DNA of 64,000 nucleotides from Owenia fusiformis. Taxonomy: Eukaryota. Positions 24,954 to 58,900 of the stretch are shown in pieces. Both the position numbers and the translations under genes were made by a program. The DNA lies in NCBI GenBank assembly GCA_903813345.2, contig CAIIXF020000001.1, positions 3,224,001 to 3,288,000 of the forward strand, given 5' to 3'. How positions within the stretch are numbered: the stretch's first letter is position 1; every line of letters starts with the position of its first letter. The notes below the pieces were generated by a model, which saw only the letters and a program-made list of their open reading frames with translations, searched no databases and was not told the DNA's origin.

Positions 24954-27900
24954 CTATAATCCAGGCATCACATAAGCAATATTGTCCAAGATTTCAGATA
25001 ATTGTTCTTCAGAACATCCATTGGTTTCATGCAGTTGTTTTGTGAGACAAGTGAGAGGTCCTAATGCAGATATTAAAGAGTCCAATAGTACAGAAAGACT
25101 GCCTTGTACTGCTATGAAACCCTGCAATGTGAATGATATGGTGTATGTAGTGTACAAATATTTAAGAGTCCAATAGTACAGAGAGACTGCCTTGTACTTC
25201 TATGAAACCCTGCAATGTGAATGATATGGTGTGTGTAGTGTACAGATATTAAAGAGTCCAATAGTACAGAGAGACTGCCTTGTACTTCTATGAAACCCTG
25301 CAATGTGAATGATATGGTGTGTGTAGTGTACAGATATTAAAGAGTCCAATAGTACAGAGAGACTGCCTTGTACTGCTATGAAACCCTGCAATGTGAATGA
25401 TATGGTGTGTGTAGTGTACAGATATTGAAGAGTCCAATAGTACAGAAAGACTGCCTTGTACTGCTATGAGACCCTGCAATGTGAATGATATGGTGTATGT
25501 AGCGTACAGATATTAAAGAGTCCAATAGTACAGAAAGACTGCCTTGTACTTCTATGAAACCCTGCAATGTGAATGATATGGTGTGTGTAGTGTACAGATA
25601 TTAAAGACTCCAATAGTACAGAGAGACTGCCTTGTACTGCTATGAGACCCTGCAATGTGAATGATATGGTGTATGTAGCGTACAGATATTAAAGAGTCCA
25701 ATAGTACAGAAAGACTGCCTTGTACTGCTATGAAACCCTGCAATGTGGATGATATGGTGTGTGTAGTGTACAGATATTAAAGACTCCAATAGTACAGAAA
25801 GACTGCCTTGTACTGCTATGAAACCCTGCAATGTGAATGATATGGTGTATGTAGTGTACAGATATTGAAGTGTCCAATAGTACAGAAAGACTGCCTTGTA
25901 CTGCTATGAAACCCTGCAATGTGAATGATATGGTGTATGTTGTCTACAGATATTAAAGAGTCCAATAGTACAGAAAGACTGCCTTGTACTGCTATGAAAC
26001 CCTGCAATGTGAATGATATGGTGTATGTAGTGTACATATATTAAAGAGTCCAATAGTACAGAAAGACTGCCTTGTACTGCTATGAAACCCTGCAATGTGA
26101 ATGATATGGTGTATGTTGTGTACAGATATTAAAGAGTCCAATAGTACAGAAAGACTGCCTTGTACTTCTATGAAACCCTGCAATGTGAATGATATGGTGT
26201 GTGTAGTGTACAGATATTAAAGACTCCAATAGTACAGAGAGACTGTCTTGTACTGCTATGAAACCCTGCAATGTGAATGATATGGTGTATGTAGTGTACA
26301 GATATTGAAGAGTCCAATAGTACAGAAAGACTGCCTTGTACTGCTATGAAACCCTGCAATGTGAATGACATGGTGTATGTAGTGTACAGATATTAAAGAG
26401 TCCAATAGTACAGAAAGACTGCCTTGTACTGCTATGAAACCCTGCAATGTGAATGATATGGTGTATGTAGTGTACAGATATTGAAGAGTCCAATAGTACA
26501 GAAAGACTGCCTTGTACTGCTATGAGACCCTGCAATGTGAATGATATGGTGTATGTAGTGTACAGATATTAAAGAGTCCAATAGTACAGAAAGACTGCCT
26601 TGTACTGCTATGAGACCCTGCAATGTGAATGATATGGTGTATGTAGTTGCAGATATTAAAGAGTCCAATAGTACAGAAAGACTGCCTTGTACTGCTATGA
26701 GACCCTGCAATGTGAATGATATGGTGTATGTAGTGTACAGATATTAAAGAGTCCAATAGTACAGAAAGACTGCCTTGTACTGCTATGAAACCCTGCAATG
26801 TGAATGATATGGTGTGTGTAGTGTACAGATATTAAAAAGTCCAATAATACAGAAAGACTGCCTTGTACTGCTATGAAACCCTGCAATGTGAATGATATGG
26901 TGTATGTAGTGTACAGATATTGAAGAGTCCAATAGTACAGAAAGACTGCCTTGTACTGCTATGAGACCCTGCAATGTGAATGATATGGTGTATGTAGTGT
27001 ACAGATATTAAAGAGTCCAATAGTACAGAGAGACTGCCTTGTACTTCTATGAAACCCTGCAATGTGAATGATATGGTGTATGTAGTGTACAGATATTAAA
27101 GAGTCCAATAATACAGAAAGACTGCCTTGTACTGCTATGAAACCCTGCAATGTGAATGATATGGTGTATGTAGTGTACAGATATTAAAGAGTCCAATAGT
27201 ACAGAGAGACTGCCTTGTACTGCTATGAAACCCTGCAATGTGAATGATATGGTGTGTGTAGTGTACAGATATTAAAGAGTCCAATAGTACAGAGAGACTG
27301 CCTTGTACTTCTATGAAACCCTGCAATGTGAATGATATGGTGTATGTAGTGTACAGATATTAAAGAGTCAAATAGTACAGAAAGACTGCCTTGTACTGCT
27401 ATGAGACCCTGCAATGTGAATGATATGGTGTATGTAGTGTACAGATATTAAAGAGTCCAATAGTACAGAAAGACTGCCTTGTGCTGCTATGAGACCCTGC
27501 AATGTGAATGATATGGTGTATGTAGTGTACAGATATGAAAGAGTCCAATAGTACAGAAAGACTGCCTTGTACTCCTATGAAACCCTGCAATGTGAATGAT
27601 ATGGTGTGTGTAGTGTACAGATATTAAAAAGTCCAATAATACAGAAAGACTGCCTTGTACTGCTATGAAACCCTGCAATGTGAATGATATGGTGTATGTA
27701 GTGTACAGATATTGAAGAGTCCAATAGTACAGAAAGACTGCCTTGTACTGCTATGAGACCCTGCAATGTGAATGATATGGTGTATGTAGTGTACAGATAT
27801 TAAAGAGTCCAATAGTACAGAGAGACTGCCTTGTACTTCTATGAAACCCTGCAATGTGAATGATATGGTGTATGTAGTGTACAGATATTAAAGAGTCCAA

Positions 27901-30900
27901 TAATACAGAAAGACTGCCTTGTACTGCTATGAAACCCTGCAATGTGAATGATATGGTGTATGTAGTGTACAGATATTAAAGAGTCCAATAGTACAGAGAG
28001 ACTGCCTTGTACTGCTATGAAACCCTGCAATGTGAATGATATGGTGTGTGTAGTGTACAGATATTAAAGAGTCCAATAGTACAGAGAGACTGCCTTGTAC
28101 TTCTATGAAACCCTGCAATGTGAATGATATGGTGTGTGTAGTGTACAGATATTAAAGAGTCCAATAGTACAGAGAGACTGCCTTGTACTGCTATGAAACC
28201 CTGCAATGTGAATGATATGGTGTATGTAGTGTACAGATATTAAAGAGTCCAATAGTACAGAAAGACTGCCTTGTACTGCTATGAGACCCTGCAATGTGAA
28301 TGATATGGTGTATGTAGTGTATAGGTTTACACAAAATATGCAACCCTTTAATTTCCGAAACACTCTCTCAGTTATGGTAGAATCTTCTTGATTTTTTTTG
28401 TGGAGAAAATGTGTTCATTGGAATAGTGAGTTCCATAGCATCAATAACTTTGAGACTTCAAGTTCTGTTGTGTGAAAGAGATGTTGTATGAGAGAGACTG
28501 TATTGTAATACTGTCTTTGAAGGCATATAATGTATACTGTATCCTCTTTACAAAATAAATAAATATTCTCACTAACTAACTTATATTTTAGTTATTTACA
28601 AATAATTTGAACTACATCCTTTCAGAAAAGCTGATTTTGAATAACATATGAATCTTATTAAGGTTAACCTCAGTCTTAACTATCTTAACTAATAAGTTTG
28701 GATACAATGTTGAAAGCATGTGTGTGGAATGTTATAGTGTAGCAGGCTTACCTTGTGGTCAATCAGCCTTGTACCAATCAGGGTCAGCGAGTCTCCGAGA
28801 AGTTTTAGATGGGCAGCGCCATCTACAGGGTTTGTACTGGTTGTCTGGAATGTATTATGATGCATTGTGAACAATCAAAATCTATGTACAATCAAAATTG
28901 AATTTCTAGATTTTCAACAAAATCTGCTATGTACCCGTACAATGGAATATAATGATTCACAGTTTGCAGTGTTAAAATTTATGGGGTGAATCAAATAAAA
29001 TGGAAAAAACTGAACTCATATATGTAGATTTTATTCTTCCACACCACTGACATATACATTGTGCATTAGAAAAATCACAGGTGTATACAGTCCCTAAACA
29101 TAATCAAATTAAACAGGCTTGACTGTATTATTGTGCAGTTGCCCCAAACACAATATTAAACATTCAAATATTGAAATAGTTTATGTCAAAATTACATTTA
29201 CAAAAGACATACCTTAGACATTGATGCACCCAGTTCTAGGGCTCCAGATACATTTGATGCCATACCCTTTATATGGCCTGTCATTTGTCGCTTAGTCATT
29301 GTACCGTATCTTTTCCCTTGTGCTTTGATGTACTGATTCTCATTGCTTTTCTTTACCACCTGCTGCATATTTTGTTCCATTGTCTTTTTACAAATCCTTT
29401 TAGCCTTTCTCTTCCAATTCTGAAATATTGATTGGGTTATAAAATCAGCCTTTCATTACCAATATTTTGGCAGGGGTTTCTCTAAGGACTCATTAATGTA
29501 AAATGTTATATAGGGTAAAAAATATGTACAACAAGCAATTGTTTTTTTTTATTTTGGTGATCCCTAAGTAATATCTCATGCAGTGGTATATTAGACAATT
29601 TTGTTTGGATCTTTAAAGGGTGACGCATATCGTTTAGCAAATCGAACGCTCGTTTCTGGTGTTGCTCACCATTTAGTATAAAAGGCTCGATCCCGGAATA
29701 ATACTCAAGGGTTCAAAGGCTCGAGGTCGTTGTGTCAACACCTCAAACTTTTATATAACATTGGTACAGTATAGATCGTCACATATTTATAAAAGGGAGA
29801 TTTTCATTTTGACAAATCAATTCCACATTTATGGGTGAAGTTTCAGGATCTTCTATTTGTGTATAATAAGGAAAATTGGCATCTAAAGGACGATTCTCGG
29901 TTTGGAGAACGAAGTTCATCAATCTAAATGAGCATTATCCCTGCTTCGGACAAATTTGATTTTTTTACATAATATAGATTCGAATGTCTTCTTTTGAATA
30001 GTCATAATTTAATTTGGGTAATATTTCTAGATTTTTCGCAAAAAAATATTAGCGCAGTACACTGATGAACTTCTTTCCCCAAATCGAGACGTTGTATTTT
30101 ATTGAATCGGTCTAATTGAGCGTTATCCCTGCTTCTGACCAATTTGTTATTTTTACATCTTGTAGATTTAAATGTCCTCTTTTGAATATTCATAGTTTAA
30201 TTTGGGTAATATTTTTATATTTTTCATGAAAAAAATTATTAGCCCAGGAGACTGTTCTCCAAACCGAGAATCGTCCTTTCCCCATAACGTAATAGCACAC
30301 AGCTTGGCATATAGAAATATCCTACAAATGAAACAAAGCAAGACAAACCTGTTTCTAATACAAGGATTTATATTGGCTGTTGTACATGTATTCTTTGAAC
30401 GCAATCACTCTTTGGATAACGTTTTCAAAATCATTATAAACGGATTACTTTATCTCAAAGACAATTTCAATAAACTGGATTTTACAGAACTCCCCTTATT
30501 TCTTAAAAATGGACTGATCCAGTTGATTCGCCTGGAGCCGCCATATTGTTTTCATACGGGATGCTAATCGGAACCCTTTAATTAACATTGCATTAGACTC
30601 AGTTATTAAAGTTGATTATGGATAAAATCAAAGAAAATTAAGAAAATCAAAATTTGGCACAACTCAGCAGATCAAACAAGATGACCTTTTTTATATTATT
30701 ATTAGCCATCAAATCAATACGTATTTTGTACTATTTTGTTTTTTCACATCAAAATGAAATTTCAAAGTCACATGTTACTTAACCCTTTCCCGACGTGAAT
30801 ATAAGAGAAAAATGTTGGCCCTGGTGACGGATATGTAAGAGCGGTTTTTAAGGGAAAACTGAAAATCACCTATGCCCCGGGACCTATACCCTGAATTTTA

Positions 30901-33900
30901 TTACTGAAATACAATTTTTAGTAAGGATTATCGCATTAGAACAACTTGTCAAAATTTGGTGTAAAAATACTGAATAGAACTTGAAATATTATCATTTAAT
31001 CAATGTATATAAATAAAAACAATGGTGCCAAAAGGAGCCTATCGTCCTGAAGGGTATTACATAATAGGGCTCCATATGGAGCCCATCGTTGTGAAAGGGT
31101 TAAAGGATCATGATTTTAATCGGAGGTTTCATAATATAGATTAAGTATTCCACTTTTTGGGATAATTACTCACCATTTTCTCTTTTTCTGGGAGGCCATG
31201 CCATCTTTCACCAAGCATTTTACTCGTTGTAGCAAAATCTAAATTAAAGAAATAATTTGAATGAATGACAATCACAAATAAAAATGGTGGCTACAACGAC
31301 ATGTCACCCCTTCTTGGTGGTGACAAGAAAACAGTTGTATTCCCAGAATAGCAATGATTTATTCTAATCCCAATGTTGCATACGATCAGCATTCTCAAAT
31401 CCATATGAAAGAGTATTTATATGAATACCGTATTATCTCTAATAGATGCACACACTCCACTGTGCGTTTATTGGAGAGAATCGGTAGTGCAGTTATCTTA
31501 CAACTGATTAGTGCTGCTATTTCAAATTGTCTTACTGATAATAGGGGGTCTTACCAAGGTCAGGTTTCTGTTCTTGAATACGACCTCTGATGGACTTACA
31601 GTACAACATATAAGCTGTAGGCCCTGAACGCCTCCTTCTCTTCTTCTGAAAATAAATACAATACACTTTAACAAAACGGTAAGTCTACTTTTTGTAGCTG
31701 ATGCTGTAAATTTTTTTAATAAACTTTTAATTTTTGAAAATGTAGTTTACACAACTTGAAGATTATCCAGAATAAAAGATTCTAGTTTCATGTAAATCAT
31801 CATACATGTGATATCATTAACTCATCATACATGTGATATTATTAACTCCTCATACATGTGATATCATTAACTCATCATACATGTGATATTATTAACTCCT
31901 CATACATGTGATATTATTAACTCCTCATACATGTGATATCATTAACTCATCATACATGTGATATTATTAACTCCTCATACATGTGATATTATTAACTCCT
32001 CATACATGTGATATTATTAACTCCTCATACATGTGATATTATTAACTCATCAAATATGTGATATTATTAACTCATCATACATGTGATATTATTAACTCCT
32101 CATACATGTGATATTATTAACTCATCAAATATGTGATATTATTAACTCATCAAATATGTGATTTTATTAACTCATCATACATGTGATATTATTAACTCAT
32201 CAAATATGTGATATTATTAACTCATCAAATATGTGATTTTATTAACTCATCATACATGTGATATTATTAACTCATCAAATATGTAATATTATTAACTCAT
32301 CATACATATGATATTATTAACTCATCATACAAATGATATTATTAACTCATCAAATATGTGATATTATTCATAATGTGTATACCTTTGATGCAGATTGGTG
32401 CTTCCCTTTGCGTTTCACAACTTCACCAGACTTCAGGCATTCAAATTGCTGTGGGGAATCCTGGGAAAGCATCTCCTCTGATGATCCTGGCAATAATTCC
32501 CCGCCATCTGGAGAGAGTAAAATAAAATCAGTCTCTGCTTGCAATGAAATCATAAAGTTTAAATATTCACAATTAATTTAATTAATGCATGAAAACTACA
32601 CTAGGAATGAATTAAAAGTAGAAAATATATTATGAATGATATGATGTTCCATTATAAGTGAATTAAAATTAGAAAATATTTATGATCATCTATTTGGAAG
32701 GAGTCAACATGCAATGTACAAATATGTATTTATCAAAACACAGATATGTTAATATGTACAGATTTTCTTTTTCAAAAACTATAAACACTTTATAATGAGA
32801 TAATATATAACACATTCCATCTGACTTTCAACTTTACCTTCCCCTATTTTCACTTTCTTATTCACTTTCGGAACTTTTTGAGTTTTTGCCTTCTTTGGTT
32901 TTGGTTCCTTTGGGAGTTTAAATGTTGGCTTAACCTCTGTTGATCCCCCTAGGAATGACCCCTCAGATTCATCTTCAATTGGCTCATTTTCAACAGTTTC
33001 TACTGTCGTTTCAATTGTTTCTAGAAGCAGATGCATGCAGGCACTAAATAAACACATGGAACAACTAACAGAACAATGATACACGTAGCAACTTAGCCTG
33101 GTAGCAATTTAGCAATTAAAACTAACAAAATATTATAATTAACATGTTAGTACAAACCAGTCTTAAAGTAGAACCATCATTTGTAAAGAAAATTGTTGGT
33201 ATTGCGATGAATTGCTCATAATGTTCTCTGTAATCTTCAAATAACTTACATTTGAAAGCGTCAAATGCTCCAGATTTTGAAAACAAGGTTTGCACCCATT
33301 TGATATTTTGAAAACAAGGCTTGCATCCACTTAAGATTTTGAAAAAATGCTTGGACCCGCATGAATCCATTTGCACAAACTTAAAAGTGAGAAAAATCAT
33401 GAAGGCTGGTTTATCTGGACCAATTTTGAATATTAATTTGTGTTTCTCTGAAATTTCCCATACTGCAGAAACCTTGTACACTACCCCATTAATTACTAAG
33501 CACAATATTCTATCTTCGACAAAGGGAACAGAACAGATATTTTCTTTTATATATACTTTAATTGATATGAACAAACTGAATAAAACAACTCGACTAGACA
33601 ATGGCAACTCCAGGCGCAGCAATTCTCACCATACGCACTAGTTATGCGCTTTTAAAGCAAATCAAGTCAAAAGAATCCCAGATACTGTCCCTTCAGAAAT
33701 GAGGATGGCAGTTTTCAATGTCCATTTTTGAATCATAAATTCGTGAAAACTAAGTAACTAAAATATTTATTATATATGAGATATCTTTATCCGGACAGAC
33801 ACATAGATGGATAAACATATGATGGACATTTTCTATATCCCATTTGAATCTCAGTTAGAGGAATAAAAATATGTTAAATTATTGAACTGTAACAAAGCAA

Positions 33901-36900
33901 ACATAATTTCCTAGTAAAACAAAAACAGCCAAATGTCAATTTTCTTTGAAATAATTACCCGATTCATCCTCATCATGCAACATAGATGGCAGCACTACCT
34001 CATGGACAGGTATTTCATCTTCGGGCTCATCAAAACATCGCTCTACTGTAATTGACTCCATTTCTGATGCTATACTCTTTTTCGGTTTCTTTGGAGCTTT
34101 TGGTTTCTTAACTTTAGGGGTTTTTGCAGTCTTAACTGGAGAGGGTGCCTCTGAGGCAAACACAGAACCTCCTAACTAAAATGATAGATGCTGATTATAC
34201 AGCGTGCCAAATATCAGGGGCCAAATATATACAAGGTGTCAAATAAATATGTTCACCTCCTTGATTTCAAGAGTATGAACATATTTGCATAAAAGTGCAT
34301 CTAGTTGAGCTAGTCAAATGAAACTTCTAGTAGAGTTGCTTCATGAAGCCAAGTTTTAAGGTGCTAAAGAACAATTCAAATATCATACAGACAAAAAAGA
34401 CAGAAACATTTTGTGGATGATAAAGTTGAGGGGAAACATATTTGTTTGACACCCTGTATATATCAATATGTTCTCTCCCCTTATCTTCAAAAGTATCCAT
34501 TATTGTAGAAGAGAAAACAAATATCAAAGCTGTACCAATTAGTATGCAATATTCTCAGTCATACAAAAATGATGTATAAATAGAATATTCTCAGTCATAC
34601 AAAAATGATGTATAAATAGAATATCCTAAGTCATACAAAAATGATGTTTAAAGAGAATATTCTCAGTCATACAAAAATGATGTTTAAATAGAATATTCTC
34701 AGTCATACAAAAATGATGTATAAATAGAATATCCTAAGTCATACAAAAATGATGTTTAAAGAGAATATTCTCAGTCATACAAAAATGATGTTTAAATAGA
34801 ATATTCTCAGTAATACAAAAATGATGTTTAAATAGAATATTCTCAGTCATACAAAAATGATGTTTAAATATAATATTCTCAGTCATATAAAAGTGATATA
34901 TAAATAGAATATCCTAAGTCATACAAAAATGATGTTTAAATAGAATATTTTCATTCATACAAAAATGATGTTTATATAGAATATTCTCAGTCATACAAAA
35001 ATGATGTTTAAATAGAATATTCTCAGTCATAAAAAATGATGTTTAAATAGAATATTTTCAGTCATACAAAAATGATGTTTAAATAGAATATTCTCAGTCA
35101 TACAAAAATGATGTTTAATAGAATATTCCCAGTCATACAAAAATGATGTTTAAATAGAATATTCTCAGTCATACAAAAATGATGTTTAAATAGAATATTC
35201 TCAGTCATACAAAAATGATGTTTAAATAGAATATTTTCATTCATACAAAAATGATGTTTAAATAGAATATTCTCAGTCATACAAAAATGATGTTTAATAG
35301 AATATATTCTCAGTCATACAAAAATGATGTTTAAATAGAATATTTTCATTCATACAAAAATGATGTTTATTAAATAGAATATTCTCAGTCATACAAAAAT
35401 GATGTTTAATAGAATATTCTCAGTCATACAAAAATGATGTATAAATAGAATATTCTCAGTCATACAAAAATGATATATGAATAGAATATTCTCAGTCATA
35501 CAAAAATGATGTTTAAATAGAATATTCTCAGTCATACAAAAATGATATATAAATTGAATATTCTCAGTCATACAAAAATGATGTTTAAATAGAATATTCT
35601 CAGTCATACAAAAATGATATATAAATTGAATATTCTCAGTCATACAAAAATGATGTTTAAATAGAATATTCTCAGGCATACAAAAATGATATATAAATTG
35701 AATATTCTCAGTCATACAAAAATGATATACAAATAGAATATGTACTCACTTCCAGTTCTGATTCTTCAGATTCAAACTTTATTTCCTTTTTGGGAATTTT
35801 AGGTGTTTTGGGAATTTTTGGTTTAGCTGGCTTCTTTGCAGATTTTGGTGGGGGAGTAGCTACCACAAGTGGGTCATCCATTGGTTCAATAGCCATACCA
35901 GGGTTAGTTTCAACTTCAGCTGTTACATCCTTCTTCTTTTTGGGAGTTTTCTTGGGTGCCTTTTTGGGTTTCTGCTCAGATGAGGCAACGACTGTCTCAA
36001 CACCAGGGTCAGATCCCAAATGAATCTTTAACTTTAGCGCACTTGTATTATCACTTTGTGTTTCAACATCTTGTGGCTTTAATGAATAAAGTAAATGTAT
36101 GAAAAATCAATGCATGTACATTTAAATGTAGTTAGTTAATAATGGAGTACAGTATTTTGCAAGTAACGATTTGAGAATATTGACAAAGATATAATCTGTT
36201 GACTTTTAGATTAAAAATATGAAATCGCATAAACTGACTATCTAGAGTCAAGTAAATGTGTAAACTGTAGTGCTATGTCACATAGGTTAGCTGACAAATG
36301 TTAGGAAATGATACTCTGACATCTCTTATCAATAGTGACTCATAAACAAAGTCAACGAAAGTAAATACCTGCATCACTTCTTCAAGTTGAACAGATTTAC
36401 TCTTCTTTGTGGTAGACTTGGTTGCAGCATCTGTGTCCAATGTAGCTACACTGGGGGCAGGGGAGGTAAGTAGGAGTTTAATCATGCTCTCATCATCCTT
36501 ACCAGGTGAAGCCTCTTGTACCACTGGAGCACTTTTAGATTTCTTGGGACTCTTGGCAGTTACAGGGGAATCTTTTGGACTTCCCATACTAGCTAAAGGA
36601 GATGTTGGCTCTGATTTCATGGACTTTTTCTATGGATATAAAGAAAGTGAAGTTGGTTAACGCATTAGTTTTTACATGAGTGCTACTATTTTTGAATTAA
36701 TGATTATGCATCTCCTCATAATTTGTATGTACAGTGTATTGATCACAAATTGACACTGATCTCACTTAAAACTTACAGATGAGGATGAGATATGGCAACA
36801 ATCCACATGATACTTACTTTTGATGCATTCACATTTGTTTTGTGGTCCTCTAACTGCTCCAATTCTTCTGCATCCGCCATAGCATCTTCTTCCATTTCTC

Positions 36901-38132
36901 GTAGCTTTGATGATTTCTTCCTTATCCTCCCAGTGGATCGAGATACAACTGGTTGCGTGTCTGCAAGAATGACAGATGTTGTGATTGTTCGATACAATTT
37001 ATGCAAACGACCAGAAAACATATCCAAAATTGTTCAATGGTAGATATTTAATTATGGACAAAATTCTTAAAATCACGAACCAACTTTTATAAAGCTTTTG
37101 ACACCTGTTTTTTAAGATGTCTGGAGTTGGTAAGAAACTGGTTAATTTGACTTGATCTTTGAACTGGCTACTCAAGAAGTAAAGTCCTGGGAAAATCTTA
37201 TATCCTACATCCCTGTTAAGTTCCATTTATTAATATGGATGGCTTCTTTCATCTTCTGTCAAAATCAATGATTCTGCACTCCCAGCTTATCCTGGGTGCT
37301 TCACCAAATGAATGTTGAGTGATTACAGATTTGTCTGTGTTTATGTTCTTTTATTCTAGCTGATCCCTATTATTCTGCCTGTTAGCCTATATCCTGTATA
37401 TTTCTTGGTTAGTATTTTGAAGAATTTTATAATTATTAAAAATAAATTTCTCTATCAAGTGGGTGCAAAATACACTTGAACCTCAATACATCTTTTTTTA
37501 ATTGTCTGTTCAATTTGAAGAATCAAAAAAATGGCAAACTTGATATTGAACTTATCTTTTTTATTTCTGTTGAGAATATTTGAAATCCTCTTGCAACAGC
37601 CTAATCTGGCAGATTACATTGTACCCCTGTTCTGTTTTCCTCTATACCCACCACCGATTAACCCCTATCCCATACTCCAATATTTTTCCATCACTGCTAT
37701 ACACTGTAATCCCCTTGTGATGAAAAGCACTTGAAGATACTACTCTTACATTTACTGAATTGATGTAACTGTATATCTCTCATCATAAAATAACAAATTA
37801 AGAGGGTGGTTTCCTAAAGTCGATGGATGAGTGTGCATCATTTCCGCGCATCTCACTTTTGGTTTCAGTTTCGATGCTGTAATTTGATTATTGACTGTAT
37901 ATTACTTGAACAAATAAACTGCTGCACATGATCTAAATTGTATATTACAGTTGAATGAAAATAATTCAAAGATGAGAATCAATGATCACATACATTTAAA
38001 TGGTGATCCATTGGCAGCATCATCCTCATCTTCATCAACTGCATCCTTCGTCTTCTTAGGTTTTGTTAAATAATCTTCAGCATCACCATCATCCTTGCTT
38101 GATGCCTTTCTCTTCCTTGGTTTGCTAGCCAT
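24954..38132 (-). CDS. HMGXB4: HMG box-containing protein 4-like
   Basis: Exons: 38132-37994, 36960-36818, 36629-36369, 36076-35750, 34175-33959, 33020-32838, ~32537(or 32507)-32383, 31645-31555 and 31238-31174 (HMG box: [12 protein letters not shown]...[26 protein letters not shown]), 29419-29213, 28844-28752 ([15 protein letters not shown]), 25121-24954 ([21 protein letters not shown]...[11 protein letters not shown]). The C-terminus matches the HMGXB4 end as I recall it (...LDNIAYIMPGL). Confidence 0.9.
25067..28323. repeat. 88-bp minisatellite, about 37 copies; unit is the intron 3' end plus the first ~55 nt of the HMGXB4 last exon
   Basis: Minus-strand unit TACACTACATACACCATATCATTCACATTGCAG|GGTTTCATAGCAGTACAAGGCAGTCTTTCTGTACTATTGGACTCTTTAATATCTG. 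Exon-start positions run from 28288 to 25121, a span of 36x88 minus 1. Confidence 0.97.
29617..30577. mobile_element. Kolobok-like non-autonomous element candidate
   Basis: TTAA|AGGGT...ACCCT|TTAA ends. Internal inverted GACGATTCTCGGTTTGGAGAAC (29891 and 30254) and an internal direct repeat. TIR match is weak. Confidence 0.45.
30783..31099. mobile_element. piggyBac-like MITE
   Basis: TTAA|CCCTTTCCCGACG...CGTTGTGAAAGGG|TTAA: TTAA TSD with CCC/GGG termini. Confidence 0.75.
31798..32370. repeat. 25-bp minisatellite, about 23 copies, intronic and abutting the donor at 32382
   Basis: Unit CATACATGTGATATTATTAACTC(A/C)T. Confidence 0.95.
34547..35741. repeat. 36-bp minisatellite, about 33 copies, intronic and abutting the donor at 35749
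   Basis: Unit AGAATATTCTCAGTCATACAAAAATGATGTTTAAAT. Confidence 0.95.
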
Positions 38133-43200: not shown

Positions 43201-46200
43201 TTTTACAGGATATTTCAAGTGTATGTATGCACTAATTAACGGTAGAGTACCTGACAGTATAGAGAACTCCCCAACTCCCCCTACACCTATGGCAGCTAGT
43301 GTATATGAACTCTTGGTGAAACCTCTAGCAGTTGTCAACTATAAACATGTTACAGATAATACAAAGTAGGTCAATATATTACATGTACACTGAAATGGTA
43401 TCCCTAAAGTTTCGAATATGAATGGTATATGTATGTATGAATTGATGAATTCAACCACTCGTATCTTAATATCTTAAGCTGTGAACACCTATCCAGCCCC
43501 TTCCTACTTCACCCCAGCCTATGGGGCTTTCATTATAGTCATATCACTATTATTTCACTATCATTTTTTTTATTTGATATTCCAGACAGACGATTTTGGA
43601 GGCTTTATGTAGAGAAGTGTTCTGTGTTGAGTACTCAATACAAGCCAACAATTTTATCATACCAGCCTTGGTATATGGGAATTCCAAATTCCCATTTGCC
43701 GATATGTTGCATGCATTATTACCCAACGAGAAGACCCAACATGTCAAAGATGACGATTATAAGAGAATGATATTGACTGTGCCACAGACCCCTTGGTTAC
43801 TTGGAGTTCTATTGAAGTTATCAGAAAAATATTTAGGTAAGGTACAATTTATAACTTTATTTGAATCAGAGCCATCTGATACCATTTGTAAATACCTGGT
43901 AAGTAGTAAGTAAATGATGTTATTTGTGGGAAACTAAAGTTATGTTTATGTAGTCCAAGAATTAATTTTCAGAACTTTGTATTTGGTCAGGAAGTGAAAA
44001 CCATTTTTAAAGTTGGTAGAGAGGGGAGACAAATGAACTGTGACAGAGATATGGCATTGTACAATATTTGCTAAGCCCCAGAGATAAGGCTTAACACAGT
44101 AATGTTTCATACATCATTCTTGTTCTTGATATGTTTACAGGCTCAGTGTCGCAACAAGATCTCCTCTGTTACCTAGAAATTTTACAAGCATTGATACCAT
44201 GTCTTCCGACCCCCAAAGATCTAGGGACGTTACAACAAGAAGACTCTGATTCTGAGGATGATGATGCCATGTGTATTGAGGTTTGTATAGTTTAGAAAAT
44301 ACAGATGTTATTGTGTACACTGCTGTACATACAGTCTGTACTTATGCATATGGGACATGGATTGAACTTAATCGTGAAAATGTAAGATGACTACTGGCCA
44401 ATCCTTGTCAAAATAGAGGACATCTATTGCATTTTAAATTGAATTAAAAGAATCAGTTTAATACAGTACACTGTATGTATTTTACATTTAGATTGAACCT
44501 TACCTGAGATTCAATTTAAGTCATGTGCATGGTTATATGTTTATCAGTTTTACTGACTATCAAATCATGCACAATTTTTAGTACTGTACATGTACATATA
44601 TTTGGACATATTTTACATGCATGTATTTTTCCTTTCAGGTTGACAGTAAGCTAACAGAGCTTAAAGATGATTGCATTACAAAGATAGACGCACCCTCCCA
44701 CATAGCATGTATCATATCCACAGTACAAGACAATCCAGATGAGGCGACCATAACTGCAGTCTGCACACTTTGCCATGCTCTCATGTCAGATCAAAAAATT
44801 AGTGTGCATAAATCGGGGTAATTGAAAAACCTAATAGATCACGCCACCTATTGGTATGATGTGTTTCTTACTGTTTCATGGCTGAAATTGGATTACTGTA
44901 TTGAACTAATGGTGATGGTCTTAATACGTGTATATGCTACTTTATGGTTTAAGTTAGAATTAGATTTTAAATATAAGACCTCAGAAAGATTGATAATACT
45001 GTATCTTCATGAAGAAATACTTAAATTCTTGAATTTTTTTTTGAACATTAATATATCTTTTTGTTTAAAAGTATAATATTTGTGTGATATTATGTGTATT
45101 AAAAATTGGTGCATATTTTGTTTTATTAGATTACTGAATTCACTAGCTTACAATAGTCAATTGGTGCAATACATGTGGAAATGCTGTACTGCTGTATCTA
45201 GTCTCTCAATTACAAAGTAAGTATGTTATACAATACATCATGAAATTACTGCCTTTTAGGGTAAAACATTTTGAGTTAAGATAATTAAATATTTTGATTT
45301 TCTCCAACAGTTTAAAAGTACTATTTTCCCACTTACACCAAACTGATATGTTTTCATGACACAACTTCCTAGATTCACTTATAATTTTTCAGGATTTTGA
45401 CACAAAGACAAACTGAGTACCAAATGATTACCCTATATTATATATACTAGATGTATTACAGTTTGATTCATATGTATTTTTTCAGAAAACGGGTCCCTTT
45501 ACTGCAGCAGCTATCACGAGGGTTAGAAATATCACGGGAGAATCTTGATCAAATCGTCTCACTTTTAGCCACCTTTTGTTCTCTATTCAGTCACTCAATT
45601 ACTACCCTCCATGATTCTGAATTCCACGGTGATGAAGGTTAGTTTAAGAAATGTCATTTGTTCCGCATAGTCAAATATAATGTTTGTAATTATCCCACCG
45701 AACGAAGTTCGAGGGGGATATAGAAAAGCTGTCCGTCCATCCGTCCGTTCGTCCGTTCGTGGGTCCGGGCAATAACTCAAATACCGGTTGACAGATTTCA
45801 TTCAAATTTTATAGGCTTATGCCTTATGGGTGTAGGACCTCTGCTCGAAAAGGAATTTTCAATATGGCCGCTTAATTCAAAATGGCGGCCATTTTTCTGA
45901 GAAAATGTAATCTTTAATAACTCAAATACTAGTGGATGGATTTGGTTCAAATTTTATATACTGTTGCCTTGGTACAAAGCAGCCTTGCTAAAGAAGACAT
46001 TTTCAAGATGGCTACCAAATTTCAAAATGGCGGGCATTTTTCGTAAAAAAACTGTTATCTTTGATAACTCAAAGACCATTGAATGGATTTGGTTCAAATT
46101 TTAGATGCTGATGCCTATGGACATAGGAGCTCTGCTCGAGAAAGGATTTTCAAGATGGCAGCTAAATTTCAAAATGGCGGCCATTTTTCGTAAAAAAATG

Positions 46201-49200
46201 TTATCTTTGATAACTCAAATACCATCGAATGGATTTGGTTTAAATTTTAGATGCTGATGCCTAGGGACATAGGAGCTCTGCTCAAAAAAGGATTTTCAAG
46301 ATGGCAGCTAAATTTCAAAATGGCGGCCATTTTTCATAAAAAAACATTATCTTTGATAGCTCAATTACCCTTGAATGGATTTGGTTCAAATTTTACATGA
46401 TGATGCCAAGGGACATAGGAGCTCTGCTCGAGAAGGGATTTTCAAGGTGGTGGCTAAATTTCAAAATGGCCGCCATTTTTCATAAAAGAACGTAACCTTT
46501 GATAACTCAAATACCAGTTGACGGATTTCGTTTAAATTCTATATGCTGATGCCTAGAGACAAAGAAGTTCTGCTCAAAAATAAATATTCAAGATGGCCAC
46601 TGAATTTCAAAATGGCCGCCATTTTTCCATAAAAAACGTAATTAATGATAACTCAAATACTAGTGGATGGATTTGGTTCCAATTTTATATGCTGATGTTT
46701 AGGGAAAAAGGAGATCTGCTTCAGAAGAAATTTCAAAGGCGATAGCTGAATTTCAAAATGGCTGCCATTTTTCATTAAAAAAGTAATCTTTGATAACCCA
46801 GATACCATTGGAAGGACATTCTCTGCTAAAGAAGAAATCTAAAGATGACAACTGAATTTCAAAATGACAACCATGTTTCATAAAGACATAATCTTTGATA
46901 ATTCAAATACCAGTGGATGAATTTGGCTCAATTTTTTTTATCAAAACATGTTTTGTTCGGTGGGATTTGCCACTCCGTTGAGTTGCTGTTTTTCTAGTAT
47001 TAGTATTTTTATTTGTTGTATGATGTGTATTCATTTTTTTAATTCAATTGTTGATTTATCAGGGGCTAGTTTCGTATCTCTCGTGTTACTTGTAATTATG
47101 ATCTAAATGCCAAATGAAATATGCCATTTAAATATTGTTTGTTACTTTCAACAGGAGGTTCACATATGCCATTTAAAGTATCAGAACTTGTACCTATGAG
47201 TTTGGAATTAAGAAATGCCTGCCTTGGTATAATAGAACTGGCCCATCCTGACACCAAACCAACACTTAGGGAGGATTATAGAAAAGCATTCCAGAGTGTA
47301 GGAGTCAACCTGCTTGACACTCTGTCCAAAGAACAGCTAGAGTATAAGAGAAAGACTTGGGCTCATCTTTTCAAGGTATAAATAGAGTTACTAGACTAAA
47401 GTATATTTAACATAAATATGTCAGCACCATAAGTGGTAGCATATTGTTATATAGTCTCCAACTTTTTATATATCATGTTTGGCAGTTGGTGTTTTGCTGT
47501 TGGCAATCTGCATCTGTAACAAATGGCAGGTGGTGATATATTGCATGTTAATGCCTTGTTTCTTATATCAACACAACCATTTCAACTTTGAAGACTGACT
47601 TTGATTTGATATTTGTACATAACAGCACGGTTATTATTTATTGCGCTACTCTGCCTTCATATATTTAGTCACAATTTCAATTTAAAGGTAAATGAAAATG
47701 ATTCAAGAAAATGAAGTGTTGAGTATTTTGTGTTTGATGATATTGTATTTGTAATCAATACGTATAAATAAGCGTATTATATTGGAGTATATCTCCAGTT
47801 ATTCCCAGCTATCTATGTATTGAAGCAACTGCATTTAAAAGACATTTAATCTCATTTAGGTAATAAGCCATCTAGTGAAGCAGTTACATGCGAGGGACAC
47901 TAGGAGACCTTTCTGTTCCTTTGGGCATTGGTTGGCCCCTCAAGTGAACATACAGGCTGACAAGGTAGACTTACTCCAACAATCACATGCAACATTATTC
48001 ACAATATTATGTTGTCAGTTTCAAATAAATATACTTCTTTAAAGTGTAGTGTTAGATAATGCATAGTATGATACAGACGCATTCTTCTGCATTGCTGTAT
48101 TAATGATTAGAAAATATTTTCTTTTTCCTTTCCAGCCATCCCAGATTTTCACATCTCTAGAGCAGTTTGTGAGGAAACCATTTGGTGCAAAAAGTATTCT
48201 GAACACAGATAGATATGGTAAGTGATTTGACTGAATTGATATTAGATCATAGACCTATCCATTGATCCAAGCAAAAACACTTAGGCAAATTGGCCTACAT
48301 ATGACATTGGTTTTGAGCAATGGGGTTTATAGTGTAATTCGACACACTCAATTAAAAAAAGCCACCATTTTTCATAAAAAGTGTAATCTTTGATAACTCA
48401 AATACTAGTGGTTAGATTTGGTTCAGATTTTATATGTTATTTTTGATTTGAACCTAAATAATCTTTAATCTTTGATAACTCAAATACTACTGGTCAGATT
48501 TGGTTCAAATTTTATATCTAATTTTTTATTTGAACCTAAATTTTATCATTTCTGAGTAGGAGTTTCCGATACCTACATGTTTATGGGTCCCCTACAGGGA
48601 ACTAACGTCAATTTCAATCGAGGTCTTTTGGTCAAATCCAGGCTTGGCTGAAAGAGTAATTAGCATTTATGCTTTCTTATGATAATTTGGCTAGTGAGTG
48701 GCTATTTTGAAAATTGTGACCAAGGCTGTTCAATGGGATTTGCTACTTTTTGGTGTTGCTGTTATCTTGTTTGATGTAATAGCCTTTTGACTGCCAAGTT
48801 TTTGGAAACTGTTTGTGGGGACATTGCTCAGGAAAGCTGCTTGCTTTTTCTTTCCTATGAATAATTTGAATAATCATATATTACATATTGAAATCTGCTA
48901 ATCATTGAGTTGCCATTTTTCTTTTTTCTAATTAGCATTCCATTTGAAATTCTGATATTGATTTGTCCTAAGCTTCTTAGTTCAGGGACCTATATAAGAT
49001 AACAACAAGGTTTTAAAAAACATATTTACAATTTATACATAGAACATCATTAAATACACTTGAGCATAATAAACATTTAAAAATATACAAAAATTGACTG
49101 ATGCTGTTTTAGTTATTGTCTCTATCTAGCATCTTTTCTTGAAAGTACTACATTGTTCCATATAGCAAGGTTGATACAATAGGCATATATTCTCCGTCAC

Positions 49201-52200
49201 ACCTGGAGAACTAGATCATAAGGCCATATCAGCTGTTTGATGGTCAGTAATTAGTTGGCTTTAAAATAATGTAAACCCAGAGTCATCCTTTATGTTCTGC
49301 TCGGAACCTTTGTCTTGGTTGTCCAACTTCTCTGATTTTTTTGGCAATGTCAATGCAGCAGAAACAGCATATCTGGCCTCTCTAGCCTGGAAACAAAATT
49401 ATTTGGTTTAATGTTGTTGTCAATATAGCAAAGGTTTTATGTTTGTCATTTTATTTGTCAAATGGTATTCTTTATTATTCAACAAATACATGACATGTTT
49501 GCCATTCATTGATATCATGGTTTTCACTACATTTTTAGGAATATTCTAAGTTGCAACATGACACTTACTCTCTTTTCAATTCTATGCAGAGCTCTTTGAA
49601 GGAGGGAACGTTTGTCTTTTTCTTGTTGAGATTGTGAAAACTTTGGGTCATAAAGTGGAGACATCATCAGGATAGTTTCCATTGTGCAGTCAGCCTTTGT
49701 ATAAAAGCCGTTTTTGCCAAATTTTGAAAAGTCTATCTCTGGCCATTCATATACATGTATCTCATTCAGATCTATCACCATTGTGACCTCTTCTACTTTC
49801 TCCTCATCTTCAGCATCATTGAATGGAACAATACGATTACTTCTCCTCCATACCTGTCTCGTTTCTTTGGATTTCCAAATAGCAGTCTTGCTCATGGCAC
49901 TTCTAATCCTATGACTTCTAGTTGGTTGTTTTGCCATATTCAAGTATTTGCGTAATTCGTGTCTTTGCAGATCAACTTACAAGAATTTATCTATCAGTTT
50001 TGGTCTTGCAATCTTTTTGTTTGTGCTTACCATAGAAACAATAATTCTGTTACCAAGTAATTCTTATTGTGTTGTATGACATCACATGTCTTGTTGCTAT
50101 TAAGGATAAAGCCTATAGAAACCACTGCATTAATTGCTATGTGACATCACAATAACATTTTTAGAGCCTTATTGTAAATTCATTTAATACATTTATGACA
50201 TCACAGTAGAATAAGATTATTTAGTTGTGATGTCATATTTCAGTTTCATTCATAGAAGTGAGTGTCATGGTAACATTTATAGTTTTAGGTTTGTTTTATT
50301 TTATGTGTATCCCTTCAAATTTAGATTTTTTCTAAATTTTCATTTTTGCAATAAAACAATCTGTAATGTGTGGTTTATTGTCCACATCAGCCTTTTTGGG
50401 ATTAGGATCTCTACTTGAGTAGAAATTCTGAATGTGGGAATATTTGAAAAAAATATAATCTATGATAACTCAAATACTATTTCAGTTCAAATCTCATATG
50501 CTGATACCTGAGGGGCAAAGAAGCTATATATTTTCAAGATGGCTACTGAATTCAAAATGGCTGCCATTTTCATAAAAAATGTTATTTTTCATAACTCATA
50601 TACCAGATAACAGATTTAGTTCAAGAAGGAATTTTCAAGATGCCTGCTGAATTCCAAATGATTGCCACTGTCTAGGAAAAATATTTTTTAAGGCGCAAAT
50701 ACTGGTATAATTTTTTGTTCACAATTTTATAGGCGAATGCCTCATGGTTGTAGGACCCTCTTCCCAAAAAGAATTTATGACATAAAACCATGTCACACCA
50801 TGGGTGTAGATTTTGCCAAAAGGAGATATTTAATAATGTTATCATGTTATTTTTTATTATAAATTAGCAACTGTAACAATGAAATATTATTTTTGTAATA
50901 TTTTGGATTACCCCTAAATCTGCCTCTAATCAATTACCAAATTTCTGTTTCAGCTGAAGAAGAGGAAGGTCCCCCACTCTCCACAATGGAGGTGAAAAAT
51001 CTCACAATTCTCACTGAGTTGCCATTTGTGTTGCCATTCCAGGAGCGAGTTAAGGTTTGTTTAAGCTATTATACAAAAATATTGCCTTATACATAGGGAG
51101 GGAATGTTCAATGTGCATTTCTGACCAGGGAATGATCTTTTTATTACATGATCACTATGCTATTCAATGCATAATAAAACATAAACGACATTCTATTAAA
51201 AAATGAAATAAATATAAAAAATAGAATTGAAAATATTATATGAGCATAATTCATGGGGATTATCAGCTGATTCGAACATGACTGTATTCACGCCTTCTAA
51301 TAAACTGAACAAAGTCAATATTTCAACAGGGTTATTTTCGCGAACAATACCCCTGGTAATATGAGTAATGTGTGACGTCATAACAGCGGCCCCTAGTAAT
51401 GGCGGACCATAATGAATATTTAAAACAGTTTTCATCGAATCCTAATATAGACCCCAAAGCAGGTGTAATATCGTTGAATACACCCCTTAGTGGTAGGCAC
51501 AAAGGCTTTGGTTGTGCGGGGTGCAGAAAGCGTTTGTGTCTAGCCCTGCAGGGTGTATTCGACAATATTACCCCTACTCTTCGGTCTATATTTTTTAAAT
51601 ATGTAATACAATTCTCTAAGATATTTGTCATGCATAACATTGTACAACAACACATGTATGCTATATATTTAATTGCTAGATATTCCACAAGCTGATTCAG
51701 CGAGAAAAGACAGAACACCAAGACGACAGAGGAGGCTTTATGTTGGGTCCCGCAATTAGTGTCATGATTAGACGCAACTATATTTATGAAGATGCCTTTG
51801 ATAAACTTTCCCCTGAAAATGGTAAGTTATTATTATGGTATGCTAAATGTTGGTCAAGCTGATCTTAAAATACCAGTAGAAATGAGATTTTCCATAGTCC
51901 CGTTTTATTACATTTTGCTTGTTGCAAAAATATACGATTGACAGAATTGAAGAATTCATAGTCCTACAACTCATTCCAGAACCCAACATGAAACTGCGAA
52001 TGCGGGTCCAGTTGGTGAATGCAGCGGGTCTTGATGAAGCTGGAATAGATGGCGGTGGCATCTTCAGAGAATTCCTCAGTGTACTCCTTAAAACTGGTTT
52101 TGATCCAAATCGAGGATTCTTTAAGTCTACAAGTGATAAACTGCTGTATCCCAACTGTCAGGCCCATCTATTGGTGGATAACTACACTAAACATTTCTAC

Positions 52201-55288: not shown

Positions 55289-55302
55289 AATAAAACTTTA
55301 TT
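55289..55302. terminator. Back-to-back polyadenylation signals for convergent UBE3C (+) and dioxygenase (-)
   Basis: AATAAA-AC-TTTATT. Confidence 0.5.
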
Positions 55303-55948
55303 CAAGCAATAAGCTTTAGCTGCAGGTTGACACAGATTACATGTAACTGTACAAAGGATATTCTTAAATATTTATGAATTAATAAAACCATTATATTATT
55401 AAGCATTATTTTGTCTGAATAAATATCATGATTACTTATTAAGTAATAATAATTTAATGGCTGGTGTTTTGAAAATAGTCCTATCACAGACAAGTACATC
55501 AATATTTGGCAATACACATACATACAAGAACAGTAATAAATCTAGTATTGTCATCAAGTATAACTTTAATATAAAATAGGGCCACTTTCCTCAAGGTCCT
55601 ACAGTTTTGCATGTAACCCAATTCTCATCCACAAATATAAACCAGTACGTTTTACGAGGACTTTTATAAGTCCAATCAATGTCGCTCAATTCACAGTCCT
55701 ATCACAGACAAGCACATCAATATTTGGCACTACTTGTATAAAGACGAATATATTGAGATATGAGAAAAGTAGGAAATAAAGCTTTGTCTTTAAGTAAAAT
55801 AGGTTCACTTTCCTATAGTGTTAAATGTAAACCAATTCCACACCAATACTATCAGTACATTTTACGAGGACTATAGAAGTTTCTGTCATTCCAGTAGGCC
55901 TTTATGTATCAATTTAAAGCAAGCTAAGGTATGTGATATACCAAGGTT

Positions 55949-58900
55949 CTAACACATGTCTCCCTTGCTATGACAAACATTGCTTTTAGCAGGAATAACT
56001 GTCCCCTTCACGGTTGTCCTATGCAGGACTCTGAGTCCTACTTCACTTACTGGAAACTGAGTCTGTTCACTAGCCTCATGTCCCAAAGCTAAGTTGTCGG
56101 ATATAATAAAGTCTCCAGGCTCCCACTGAAATAAAAGGTTATAGTTATTATAAAATGTGATAGAATGATTTAATAATTTCTTTCAAATATCCAAGATGTA
56201 ATATCAAATCATCTCAGTCAAAGTCTTCAGATTTAATAAGGTGAAATACAAAGTAAAATAAAATGATAAACATCAAGAGAGAAATGTAAATGATTGTGTC
56301 CAAGAAGATGTTCATCTGTTCATGTTGATAGACCGTACTCAGTACATATTTGAATCATATGTGGAAAATTAGTGGAAAAGTCCATAGATTTGCATGTTAA
56401 TCATGTTTATGTGTGAGTGGTATGAAACTTACCTTGCGTGAATGAGGTTAAACTCACCTTGTGTGAATGGTGTTAAACTCACCTTGTGTGAATGGTATTA
56501 AACTCACCCTGTGTGACGGTGTTAAATTCAACTTGTGTCAACAGTATCAAACTCACCTTGCTTGAATGGTGTTAAACTCGCCTTGTGTGAATGGTGTTTA
56601 ACTCACCTTGTGTGAGATGGTGTTAAACTTACCTTGTGTGAATGGTGTTTAACATAATGTCTGAGATGGTGTTAAATTACCTTATGTGAATGGTGTAAAA
56701 CTCACCTTGTGTGAATTGTGTTAAACTCACTTTGCGGAATAGTGTTAAACTCCCCTTGTGTGAATGGTGTAAAACTCACCTTGCGGAATAGTGTTAAACT
56801 CCCCTTGTGTGAATGGTGTTAAACTCACCTTGCGTGAATGATGTTAAACTCACCTTGTGTGAATGGTGTTAAACTCACCTTGTGTGAATGGTATTAAACT
56901 CAACCTGTGTGATGCTGTTAAATTCAACTTGTGTCAACAGTATCAAACTCACCTTGCTTGAATGGTGTTAAAATCACCTTGTGTGAATGGTGTTAAACTC
57001 GCCTTGTGTGAATGGTGTTAAACTCACCTTGTGTGAATGGTGTTTAACTCACCTTGTGTGAATGGTGTTAAATTACCTTGTGTGAATGGTGTATAACTCA
57101 CCTGGCATAATAATGTTAAACTCACCTTGTGAGAATACTGTGTTTCTGGTTTGTTGCAAATTCCTTCTTTATTTCCTTCAGAATCTCTAAGGTCTCTTGA
57201 AAGTTTGTAATCTTTTGTTTTTCTGTACCATAACCTTGTGTGAATGATGTTAAACTCACCTTGCGGAATAGTGTTAAACTCCCCTTGTGTGAATGGTGTT
57301 AAACTCACCTTGTGTGAATGGTGTTTAACTCACCTTGTGTGAATGGTATAAAACTCACCTTGTGTGAATGGTGTAAAACTCACCTTGTGTGAATGGTGTT
57401 AAACTCACCTTGCGGAATAATGTTAAACTCACCTTGTGTGAATACTGTAAGTGTTTCTGGTTTGTTGCAAATTCCTTCTTTATTTCCTTCAGAATCTCTA
57501 AGGTCTCTTGAAAGTTTGTAATCTTTTGTTTTTCTGTACCATAATCCCAAATAAACGCATCAGTCATTCCCAAATGGACACACATTGTCTACAAAATAAG
57601 TTATTCATTGAGGAATTGAAAAGTGATGATGATAGATATAAGTACATATATTGACCAGCCCATATAGTTTCTGTTAGGAGTGGTTAGTTTAGTCTAGGTA
57701 ACTTTGATGGTTATTTTGATATAAATTGAACACATGCCCATTTACGATTAAACACATACCATAATGAGGGCTTGGTTAAATATGACAGGAACACTGTACA
57801 ACAATCAATATGGTAAAGATTACTAACAGTATTAAGGCTACAATAATTGAATCTGACGTTTCGGTTTGGAGATGTACATGTAAGTGGAGTGGATGAAGCT
57901 TTATATTCCCACTTCCTCAAAGGGCTAATTATGTACATAAAACACATATTTCTGGAACAGTACAATACAGTAGAATCACAAACATTTTCCATAAATGACT
58001 GATGAACCATAATTTTTGCACAGTTTGCAGTGGACTCAGAGAAGTGCTTAATATTATATTTGTTTCCCGCAAGCTTAGTTCACACCAACGGCACTTTGAT
58101 AGCGCTTTAAAGCAGATATGCATGCCGCTTTAAAGCACTATCAAAGCGCTGTTTGTGTGAACTTAGCTTTAGCTCATATAAGAATGTACTATTTTTACCA
58201 GTTCTCCAGTTGATGGGTGTGAATATACCAGGGGGTGATACAATTGCCCTCTCCTGTCGCTGACCATCCACAGTCTGTCCCATCTTGCAAACTGTTCTTT
58301 GGACAGATTTTTCAAAAGCTCATTAAGGGGAATGAACACTGAAAATAAAAAATACAAGGCATATAACATACTTTAGGCTTTAGGCCAATATAAAGCTGGC
58401 AACACAACTGCAGTAACCTTGCAATACTGAGTGAGATGGGCAGACTACACAGGGAGATATGCTGAGTACTAAAATAGTACTCATGGCATTTTAGCACTAA
58501 TTGAGTACTCATTTCAGTAAATATTTGTACTAAATGAGCACTCATGACATGAGTACTGATTTATTGCATGTTTTAGTACTAAATGAGTACTCATGTGATG
58601 AGTGATAAAATAGCGCTAATTTCATTGATTTTTCATTACTCAATGAGCGCTCATGATATGATCACTAATTAATTGCATGTTTTAGTACTAAATGAGTACT
58701 GATATGATGAGTGATAAAATAGCGCTAATTCCATTGATTTTTCATTACTCAATGAGCGCTCATATTATGAGTACTAATATATTGCTCATGTTTCACGAGT
58801 GATAGAATAGTACTCAAAGATTAAAATGTTGATAGATTTTTTTTAATTGATGAAGTAAAATATAGGATACCTAATAAATTACATTTTGATTATTCGAAAA

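What the first reader, a model, noticed from the sequence alone, without database searches (positions are those of the whole stretch)
25067..57445. All four free-standing minisatellites in the window are anchored at exon-intron junctions
Seen: the 88-bp array spans an acceptor and the 25-bp array at 56.4-57.4 kb spans a donor. The 25-bp array at 31798-32370 starts about 12 nt into the intron from donor 32382, and the 36-bp array at 34547-35741 about 8 nt from donor 35749. The four units are unrelated to one another, each derives from local junction sequence, and each extends only into the intron. Three are in one gene. Inference: a mechanism or selective filter that seeds tandem amplification at splice junctions (for example R-loop- or nucleosome-edge-associated breaks with rolling-circle or slippage repair), acting as a route to intron expansion and new splice sites. 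Four cases is a small sample.
Basis: partly seen in the sequence, partly recalled or inferred. Interest (0 to 1): 0.75.

Follow-up and report, generated by a model that had tools for sequence, protein, structure and literature searches.

The report
Splice-junction minisatellites in an annelid
Four long DNA stutters in two genes of a marine worm sit at exon borders; two are copies of the splice site itself, a known repeat type called a "mirage", and a sample of the genome suggests that long repeats inside genes, but not short two-copy ones, cluster at such borders.

Summary
The four arrays are real, each confined to its own locus, and lie at splice junctions of an HMGXB4 gene (A 88 bp x37, B 25 bp x23, C 36 bp x33) and a TauD-like gene (D 25 bp x41) of Owenia fusiformis. 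A and D carry the splice site in every unit: they are 'mirage' minisatellites, known from amphioxus and human F7. B and C only start 14 and 8 nt after a donor and do not resemble it. In 0.94 Mb sampled outside the window, with predicted exons, 12 of 34 locus-unique intragenic arrays touch a junction (6.0 expected, p=0.009); transposon-borne arrays 0 of 43. The excess lies in large arrays (6 of 9 with 8 or more copies, 1.7 expected). Two-copy seeds show none (1 of 24, 3.6 expected; window included). So the pattern extends beyond the window, but points to growth or survival at exon edges rather than seeding there. Samples are small and size cut-offs post hoc; no RNA evidence. This scan had already noted many mirages in this genome and in others.

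The parts
24954..38132 (-). HMGXB4 orthologue, 12 coding exons, 672 aa; hosts arrays A, B, C
   Evidence: Open GT-AG model identical to P0001; last exon 67-76% identical to named HMG domain-containing protein 4; weak HMG-box hits on two exons
24954..25121 (-). Last coding exon of HMGXB4; its first 55 nt form the exon part of the 88-bp unit
25067..28321 (-). Array A: 88 bp x37, each unit = last 33 nt of the intron + first 55 nt of the exon; all 37 acceptors intact; the exon-side copy equals the consensus
   Evidence: multi-copy in 4 of 4 runs laid
31793..32368 (-). Array B: 25 bp x23, wholly intronic, starts 14 nt after the donor; no splice site in the unit
32383..32507 (-). HMGXB4 exon 7, whose donor abuts B
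34548..35741 (-). Array C: 36 bp x33, wholly intronic, starts 8 nt after the donor; no splice site in the unit
35750..36076 (-). HMGXB4 exon 4, whose donor abuts C
55949..60875 (-). TauD-family dioxygenase gene, 4 exons, 283 aa; hosts D
   Evidence: Pfam TauD E=4e-14 on exon 1 only, exons 2-4 had no hit alone
56409..57443 (-). Array D: 25 bp x about 41, unit = 11 nt exon + 14 nt intron; 28 AG|GT remain, 21 as AG|GTGAG
57126..57234 (-). 109-nt partial copy of TauD exon 3 inside D (311-bp higher-order duplication, 4-nt deletion, weak acceptor, strong donor)
57433..57588 (-). TauD exon 3, whose donor is spanned by D
45772..46810 (.). Fifth long array (146 bp x7) inside a dispersed element in a UBE3C-like intron, 134 nt from a donor; not junction-anchored

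Best explanation
These are locally born minisatellites of the mirage type (A, D) or donor-abutting arrays (B, C). (1) Short segments duplicate in tandem at places not clearly tied to junctions (partly shown by the seed count). (2) A duplication across a junction leaves one intact exon and puts the spare splice sites in the intron. It is tolerated because splice sites pair across the exon, so the copy joined to the exon body is used (inferred from F7 and amphioxus; here supported only by an annotated protein). (3) Arrays then grow by repeated unequal exchange or multi-unit slippage (shown by repeated variant blocks). (4) Arrays that touch an exon grow larger or last longer than mid-intron ones (size-dependent excess in a small sample). 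The likely reason is that the conserved exon shields one end from deletion and offers a homologous foothold for recombination between divergent haplotypes (inference, untested). The arrays are probably by-products with no regulatory role.
For: Outside the window, automatic count: 9 of 38 locus-unique arrays within 25 nt of a predicted junction versus 2.1 expected; transposon-borne 0 of 43 versus 3.4. With two coding repeats dropped: 7 of 15 intragenic versus 3.2 under the strictest (host-intron) null, p=0.013; 4 of 8 without the blocks next to the window, p=0.034. Blocks plus kinase loci, curated: 12 of 34 versus 6.0, p=0.009; 8 or more copies 6 of 9 versus 1.7, p=0.002; 3-7 copies 6 of 25 versus 4.2, p=0.24. 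Seeds 1 of 24 versus 3.6, against 1 chance seed in shuffled introns. Flanking exons backed by Pfam: PFK, Piwi, RING/B-box, UNC80, kinesin (weak), PDZ_5, and by a kinase profile. Repeated blocks: five units of A recur nine units apart; blocks recur in D. Papers: PMC1557585, PMC3087553, PMC3902484.
Against: Small numbers; exons outside the window are predicted (held-out test: 77 of 95 sites found, 77 of 84 calls right). Counting only the 4 Pfam-backed spans among 15 gives p=0.13. Size cut-offs were chosen after seeing the data. Most seeds have 14-30-bp units, and the excess also splits by unit length (40 bp or more: 8 of 10 versus 2.6; under 40 bp: 4 of 24 versus 3.4), so seeding of long units at junctions is not excluded. 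No exon-side polarity of turnover (4 of 10). Five long arrays outside predicted genes have no predicted junction; counted as misses the result is 6 of 11, p=0.019. The annotation-free splice-motif test was weak (12 of 36 versus about 6.8; transposon arrays 6 of 20 versus 3.8).
Confidence: 0.5

Rival explanations
1. One reading: breaks or slippage are seeded preferentially at exon-intron borders (R-loops, nucleosome edges), so duplications arise there.
For: The excess at junctions is real in the sample; long-unit arrays touch junctions in 8 of 10 cases even at 3-5 copies; L114 starts exactly at intron base +1; a low-copy donor duplication lies in L144.
Against: Two-copy seeds 1 of 24 near and 0 spanning versus 3.6 and 1.85 expected; breakpoints range from about 87 nt inside the exon to 21 nt inside the intron, with no fixed site.
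Confidence: 0.25
2. Geometry plus tolerance only: introns are short (median about 430 nt) and units long, so random duplications often cross a junction, and the excess is a small-sample or prediction effect.
For: Random contact is already 12-30% for units of 16-90 bp in genes; window spans alone p=0.2; Pfam-backed spans alone p=0.13.
Against: The host-intron null already allows for this and is exceeded (p=0.013); the kinase loci agree (4 of 7 non-coding arrays by eye; automatic 3 of 8 versus 0.67, p=0.022).
Confidence: 0.17
3. The spare splice sites are functional (tuning splicing or expression, or a route to new exons and introns) and are kept by selection.
For: All 37 acceptors of A are intact; D holds an exon-like cassette with a strong donor; PMC3087553 proposes intron gain from mirages as a model.
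Against: A's copies are 96% alike everywhere, so intact sites mean little; in D the GT changes in 8 of 36 aligned copies, about the average rate per position; a decoy acceptor in A would shift the frame and replace the conserved C-terminus; the D cassette is 109 nt, not a multiple of 3; B and C hold no site.
Confidence: 0.06
4. The arrays are inserted dispersed satellites or assembly artefacts.
For: One 69-72% match of B on C6.
Against: Units of A and D are exact copies of the host exon edge; A, C and D hit nowhere else; A's unit is multi-copy in four runs from three studies; copies carry structured variants.
Confidence: 0.02

Closest known systems
Amphioxus 'mirage' minisatellites (Adh3, globins BflGb6/BflGb9, troponin C, PGBD5): PMC3087553 and PMC3902484, passages read; the original Adh3 paper was not read
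   Same: The unit spans an exon-intron border (either side), spare splice sites sit in the intron, copies are homogenised, mechanism unknown; A and D fit.
   Different: Here an annelid, with 37-41 copies versus 2-7 in the globin and PGBD5 cases; B and C abut a donor without containing it; the passages read give single genes, no enrichment test.
Human F7 intron-7 37-bp VNTR, with IFI6 (6-16), CBS, lamin B2 and PDGF cited there: PMC1557585, abstract and passages read
   Same: Donor repeated in each unit; only the most upstream site is used in F7. D has the same layout.
   Different: Those are donor cases; A is an acceptor case with 36 spare sites upstream of the used one; human cases are isolated genes, here about 7 arrays per 194 predicted introns outside the window.
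Tandem-repeat-driven intron formation in human segmental duplications: PMC2812944, passages read
   Same: Variable repeats at exon-intron borders can create introns through cryptic sites.
   Different: No new intron or used cryptic site is shown here.

Membership tests
Mirage minisatellite | Repeat unit spans an exon-intron boundary (arrays A, D) | tested here: met
   A: 33 nt intron + 55 nt exon; D: 11 nt exon + 14 nt intron
Mirage minisatellite | Repeat unit spans an exon-intron boundary (arrays B, C) | tested here: not met
   Start 14 and 8 nt inside the intron; no significant likeness to the junction, no donor motif
Mirage minisatellite | Splice signals duplicated in the copies | tested here: met
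   37 of 37 acceptors in A; 28 AG|GT in D; not in B, C
Mirage minisatellite | Locus-specific origin from the host gene | tested here: met
   only own array; one weak extra hit for B
Mirage minisatellite | Normal splicing, spare sites silent | not testable with these tools
   No usable RNA data; public protein P0001 uses the exon-side acceptor, which is annotation, not a test
Mirage minisatellite | Length polymorphism between haplotypes | tested here: inconclusive
   Contigs show A multi-copy in four samples but give no copy number
Mirage minisatellite | Concerted turnover of copies | tested here: met
   Shared variants and repeated multi-unit blocks
Transposon-borne or dispersed satellite | Same unit and flanks at other loci | tested here: not met
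   Not for A-D; met by the 146-bp array

The most novel reading that the evidence does not exclude
In this genome most long locus-specific intragenic minisatellites are anchored at exon edges because an exon edge drives or protects array expansion (conserved-exon-primed recombination between divergent haplotypes, or repair coupled to splicing or exon chromatin). That would make exon borders a main engine of intron growth, with thousands of natural splice-site competition experiments. Sample: 6 of 6 intragenic arrays of 500 nt or more and 8 or more copies outside the window (1.3 expected), plus 4 of 4 in it.
Probability: 0.35. Interest if true: 0.7.

Novelty: new member of a known kind. Interest (0 to 1): 0.42.

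Why it matters
The structures are known, so the arrays themselves are new examples. What may be new is the measurement. The papers read treat mirages gene by gene, and my searches (open-access library only) found no genome-wide enrichment test. If the size-dependent excess holds, it makes the origin of mirages testable and separates seeding from growth. Array A is also a clean test of 3' splice-site choice: 36 near-identical acceptors precede the one that must be used.

Tried and rejected
RNA: no RNA holder listed. The two 'RNA?' runs laid covered the flank and a transposon like DNA, so nothing on splicing was learned. B and C as decayed mirages: by eye the gap to the donor resembles a partial unit, but the alignment test was not significant for B, C, C7 or L120. 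Exon-side polarity of turnover: none, 4 of 10. Selection against spare donors in D: none seen. Splice-motif content of units: weak and similar in transposon arrays. Protein atlas and PDB gave nothing for the exons; Pfam missed 9 of 12 window exons singly. The first gene-chain run merged genes and hid opposite-strand ones and was replaced. Rows dropped as coding: C1c 47547 (zinc knuckles), C9 4805, L117, L125; L145 left out because I picked it on purpose. Rows corrected by eye: L130 (non-coding donor array, 54 bp), L112 (91 bp x4), L144 (taken out as two-copy). Three likely hits were not counted: UNC80 140 bp, the PDZ_5-exon 52 bp array, and L120; nor was C4 7208 (probable donor of a start-codon exon). 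Passages of PMC9977687 (O. fusiformis genome) gave no heterozygosity figure and no mention of such arrays; its supplements were not read and could bear on both.

Full report
1. Observation. TRF finds the four arrays where stated. I built exon models for the window: a sushi/EGF mosaic gene (first 12 exons only), HMGXB4 (12 exons, minus), a UBE3C-like HECT ligase (23 exons, plus), a TauD-family gene (4 exons, minus) and HSP70 (Pfam; the UBE3C and HSP70 names are recalled, the HECT domain is). The HMGXB4 model is identical to a public 672-aa Owenia fusiformis protein on a contig of the same length as C1. A spans the last acceptor (25121) and D a donor (57433); B and C begin 14 and 8 nt after donors. 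Units are locus-specific at the sensitivity of the genome search. A's unit is multi-copy in all four runs laid. Two statements need trimming. B and C contain no junction sequence. A fifth long array is left out, fairly, since it is part of a dispersed element.

2. Chance in the window. Collapsed to one unit, the host introns are only 463, 186, 416 and 297 nt, so a random duplication would often touch a junction. Four of four within 25 nt compares with 1.5 expected in those introns (p=0.016) and 0.9 over genic positions (p=0.002); two spans versus 0.85 is not significant. The window was also picked for this pattern.

3. Test outside the window. I took 800 kb in 12 blocks on 10 contigs (250 kb flanking the window, one block chosen for B's weak hit, ten at round coordinates) and 48 kinase loci of about 145 kb (30 best matches; 17 taken as every third of a list of 60 small-exon matches, plus one picked on purpose and excluded). 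Exons were predicted by a chain model; trained without the window's exons in its last round, it found 77 of 95 window sites with 77 of 84 calls right. Automatic result: of 38 locus-unique arrays 9 lay within 25 nt of a junction (2.1 expected); of 43 transposon-borne arrays none (3.4 expected). Dropping two coding repeats: 7 of 15 intragenic versus 3.2 under the host-intron null, p=0.013; without the flanking blocks 4 of 8, p=0.034; only Pfam-backed spans 4 of 15, p=0.13. Pfam supports exons beside arrays in PFK, Piwi, RING/B-box, UNC80, kinesin (weak) and PDZ_5 genes; 4 of the 13 exons had no hit. In kinase loci, 4 of 7 non-coding unique arrays touch a junction: L112, L114, L128, L130. Pooled and curated: 12 of 34 versus 6.0, p=0.009. 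Donors and acceptors both occur; the near-but-not-spanning cases among arrays of 90 nt or more (B, C, C7 30249, L114, L120) are all at donors.

4. Dependence on size. The excess is concentrated in large arrays: 6 of 9 with 8 or more copies (1.7 expected), 6 of 25 with 3-7 copies (4.2 expected), 1 of 24 two-copy seeds (3.6 expected; blocks including the window). These cut-offs are post hoc, and unit length is confounded: units of 40 bp or more 8 of 10, shorter ones 4 of 24. So 'all' is not general, 'most long intragenic ones' is plausible, and seeding versus growth leans to growth but is not settled.

5. How it works. A duplication across a junction leaves one whole exon and spare sites on the intron side, so the one-sided extension is a logical result, not a clue. 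In A every copy keeps the acceptor; use of an upstream copy would shift the frame and replace the conserved C-terminus. The used site must be the one joined to the exon, as exon definition predicts (established knowledge; not tested here). For donors, F7 minigenes show that the most upstream site wins (PMC1557585, passages); amphioxus RT-PCR found no interference (PMC3087553, passages). Variant maps show multi-unit blocks copied within A and D, and a 311-bp duplication that carried 109 nt of TauD exon 3 into D: iterative unequal exchange or slippage, though an initial rolling-circle step is not excluded. Why exon-edge arrays become large is inference. One end cannot be deleted, and the exon may be the best-matched foothold for recombination: the listed differences between samples lie in the flank (up to 11 in 140 nt) and none in the coding part, but only 40 of 93 rows were shown. 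No exon-side polarity was found, which does not help this idea.

6. Known kinds. A and D meet the testable features of amphioxus mirages and match the human F7 type; B and C fail the defining feature and are junction-abutting minisatellites. I reached the mirage reading from papers before opening the scan's notes, which list many mirages in this genome and in others; those notes are unchecked and not independent support.

7. Verdict. New members of a known kind. The added value is a first, small, prediction-based measurement that long arrays in this genome favour exon edges while seeds do not. Interest 0.42; the bolder reading (exon edges drive or protect expansion genome-wide) has probability about 0.35 and would merit 0.7.

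Noticed in passing
L145:733-1067: GSK3-like kinase (name recalled) with two tandem, diverged copies of one catalytic-loop exon separated by only about 45 nt; looks like mutually exclusive exons.
   Followed up: no
window 23849-24318: High-copy MITE-like element that contigs of runs X1 and X2 skip: an insertion polymorphism downstream of HMGXB4.
   Followed up: partly
window 57126-57234: Partial copy of TauD exon 3 inside array D, between a weak acceptor and a strong donor; a frameshifted candidate pseudo-exon.
   Followed up: partly
L091:3174-4085: 114-bp x8 array that spans a predicted stop codon and runs into the 3' UTR, with no splice site: a coding-edge anchor without a junction.
   Followed up: partly
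L068:7208-9704: 88-bp x28.6 array whose unit holds an ATG and a donor; the phase fits the next predicted exon, so probably a mirage of the first coding exon; not counted.
   Followed up: partly
L130:243-948: MEK-like kinase (name recalled): a 54-bp donor-spanning unit that is in frame and open, so spare donors would add 18-residue repeats.
   Followed up: partly
window 11224-11500: Coding 18-bp repeat giving an acidic/basic low-complexity exon in the sushi/EGF mosaic gene; in-frame coding minisatellites were common in the sample.
   Followed up: no
window 17420-18495: Two adjacent near-duplicate exons of the mosaic gene, both with an unusual AAG acceptor.
   Followed up: no
window 49580-50040: Coding-like stretch inside a long UBE3C-like intron, possibly a transposon remnant.
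   Followed up: no
window 39330-39400: tRNA-like or SINE-like sequence between the divergent HMGXB4 and UBE3C-like genes (by eye).
   Followed up: no
L054/L055 boundary, G000:C6:30544951-30545507: AT-rich array sharing a short core with unit B at 69-72%; chance or a distant relative.
   Followed up: partly
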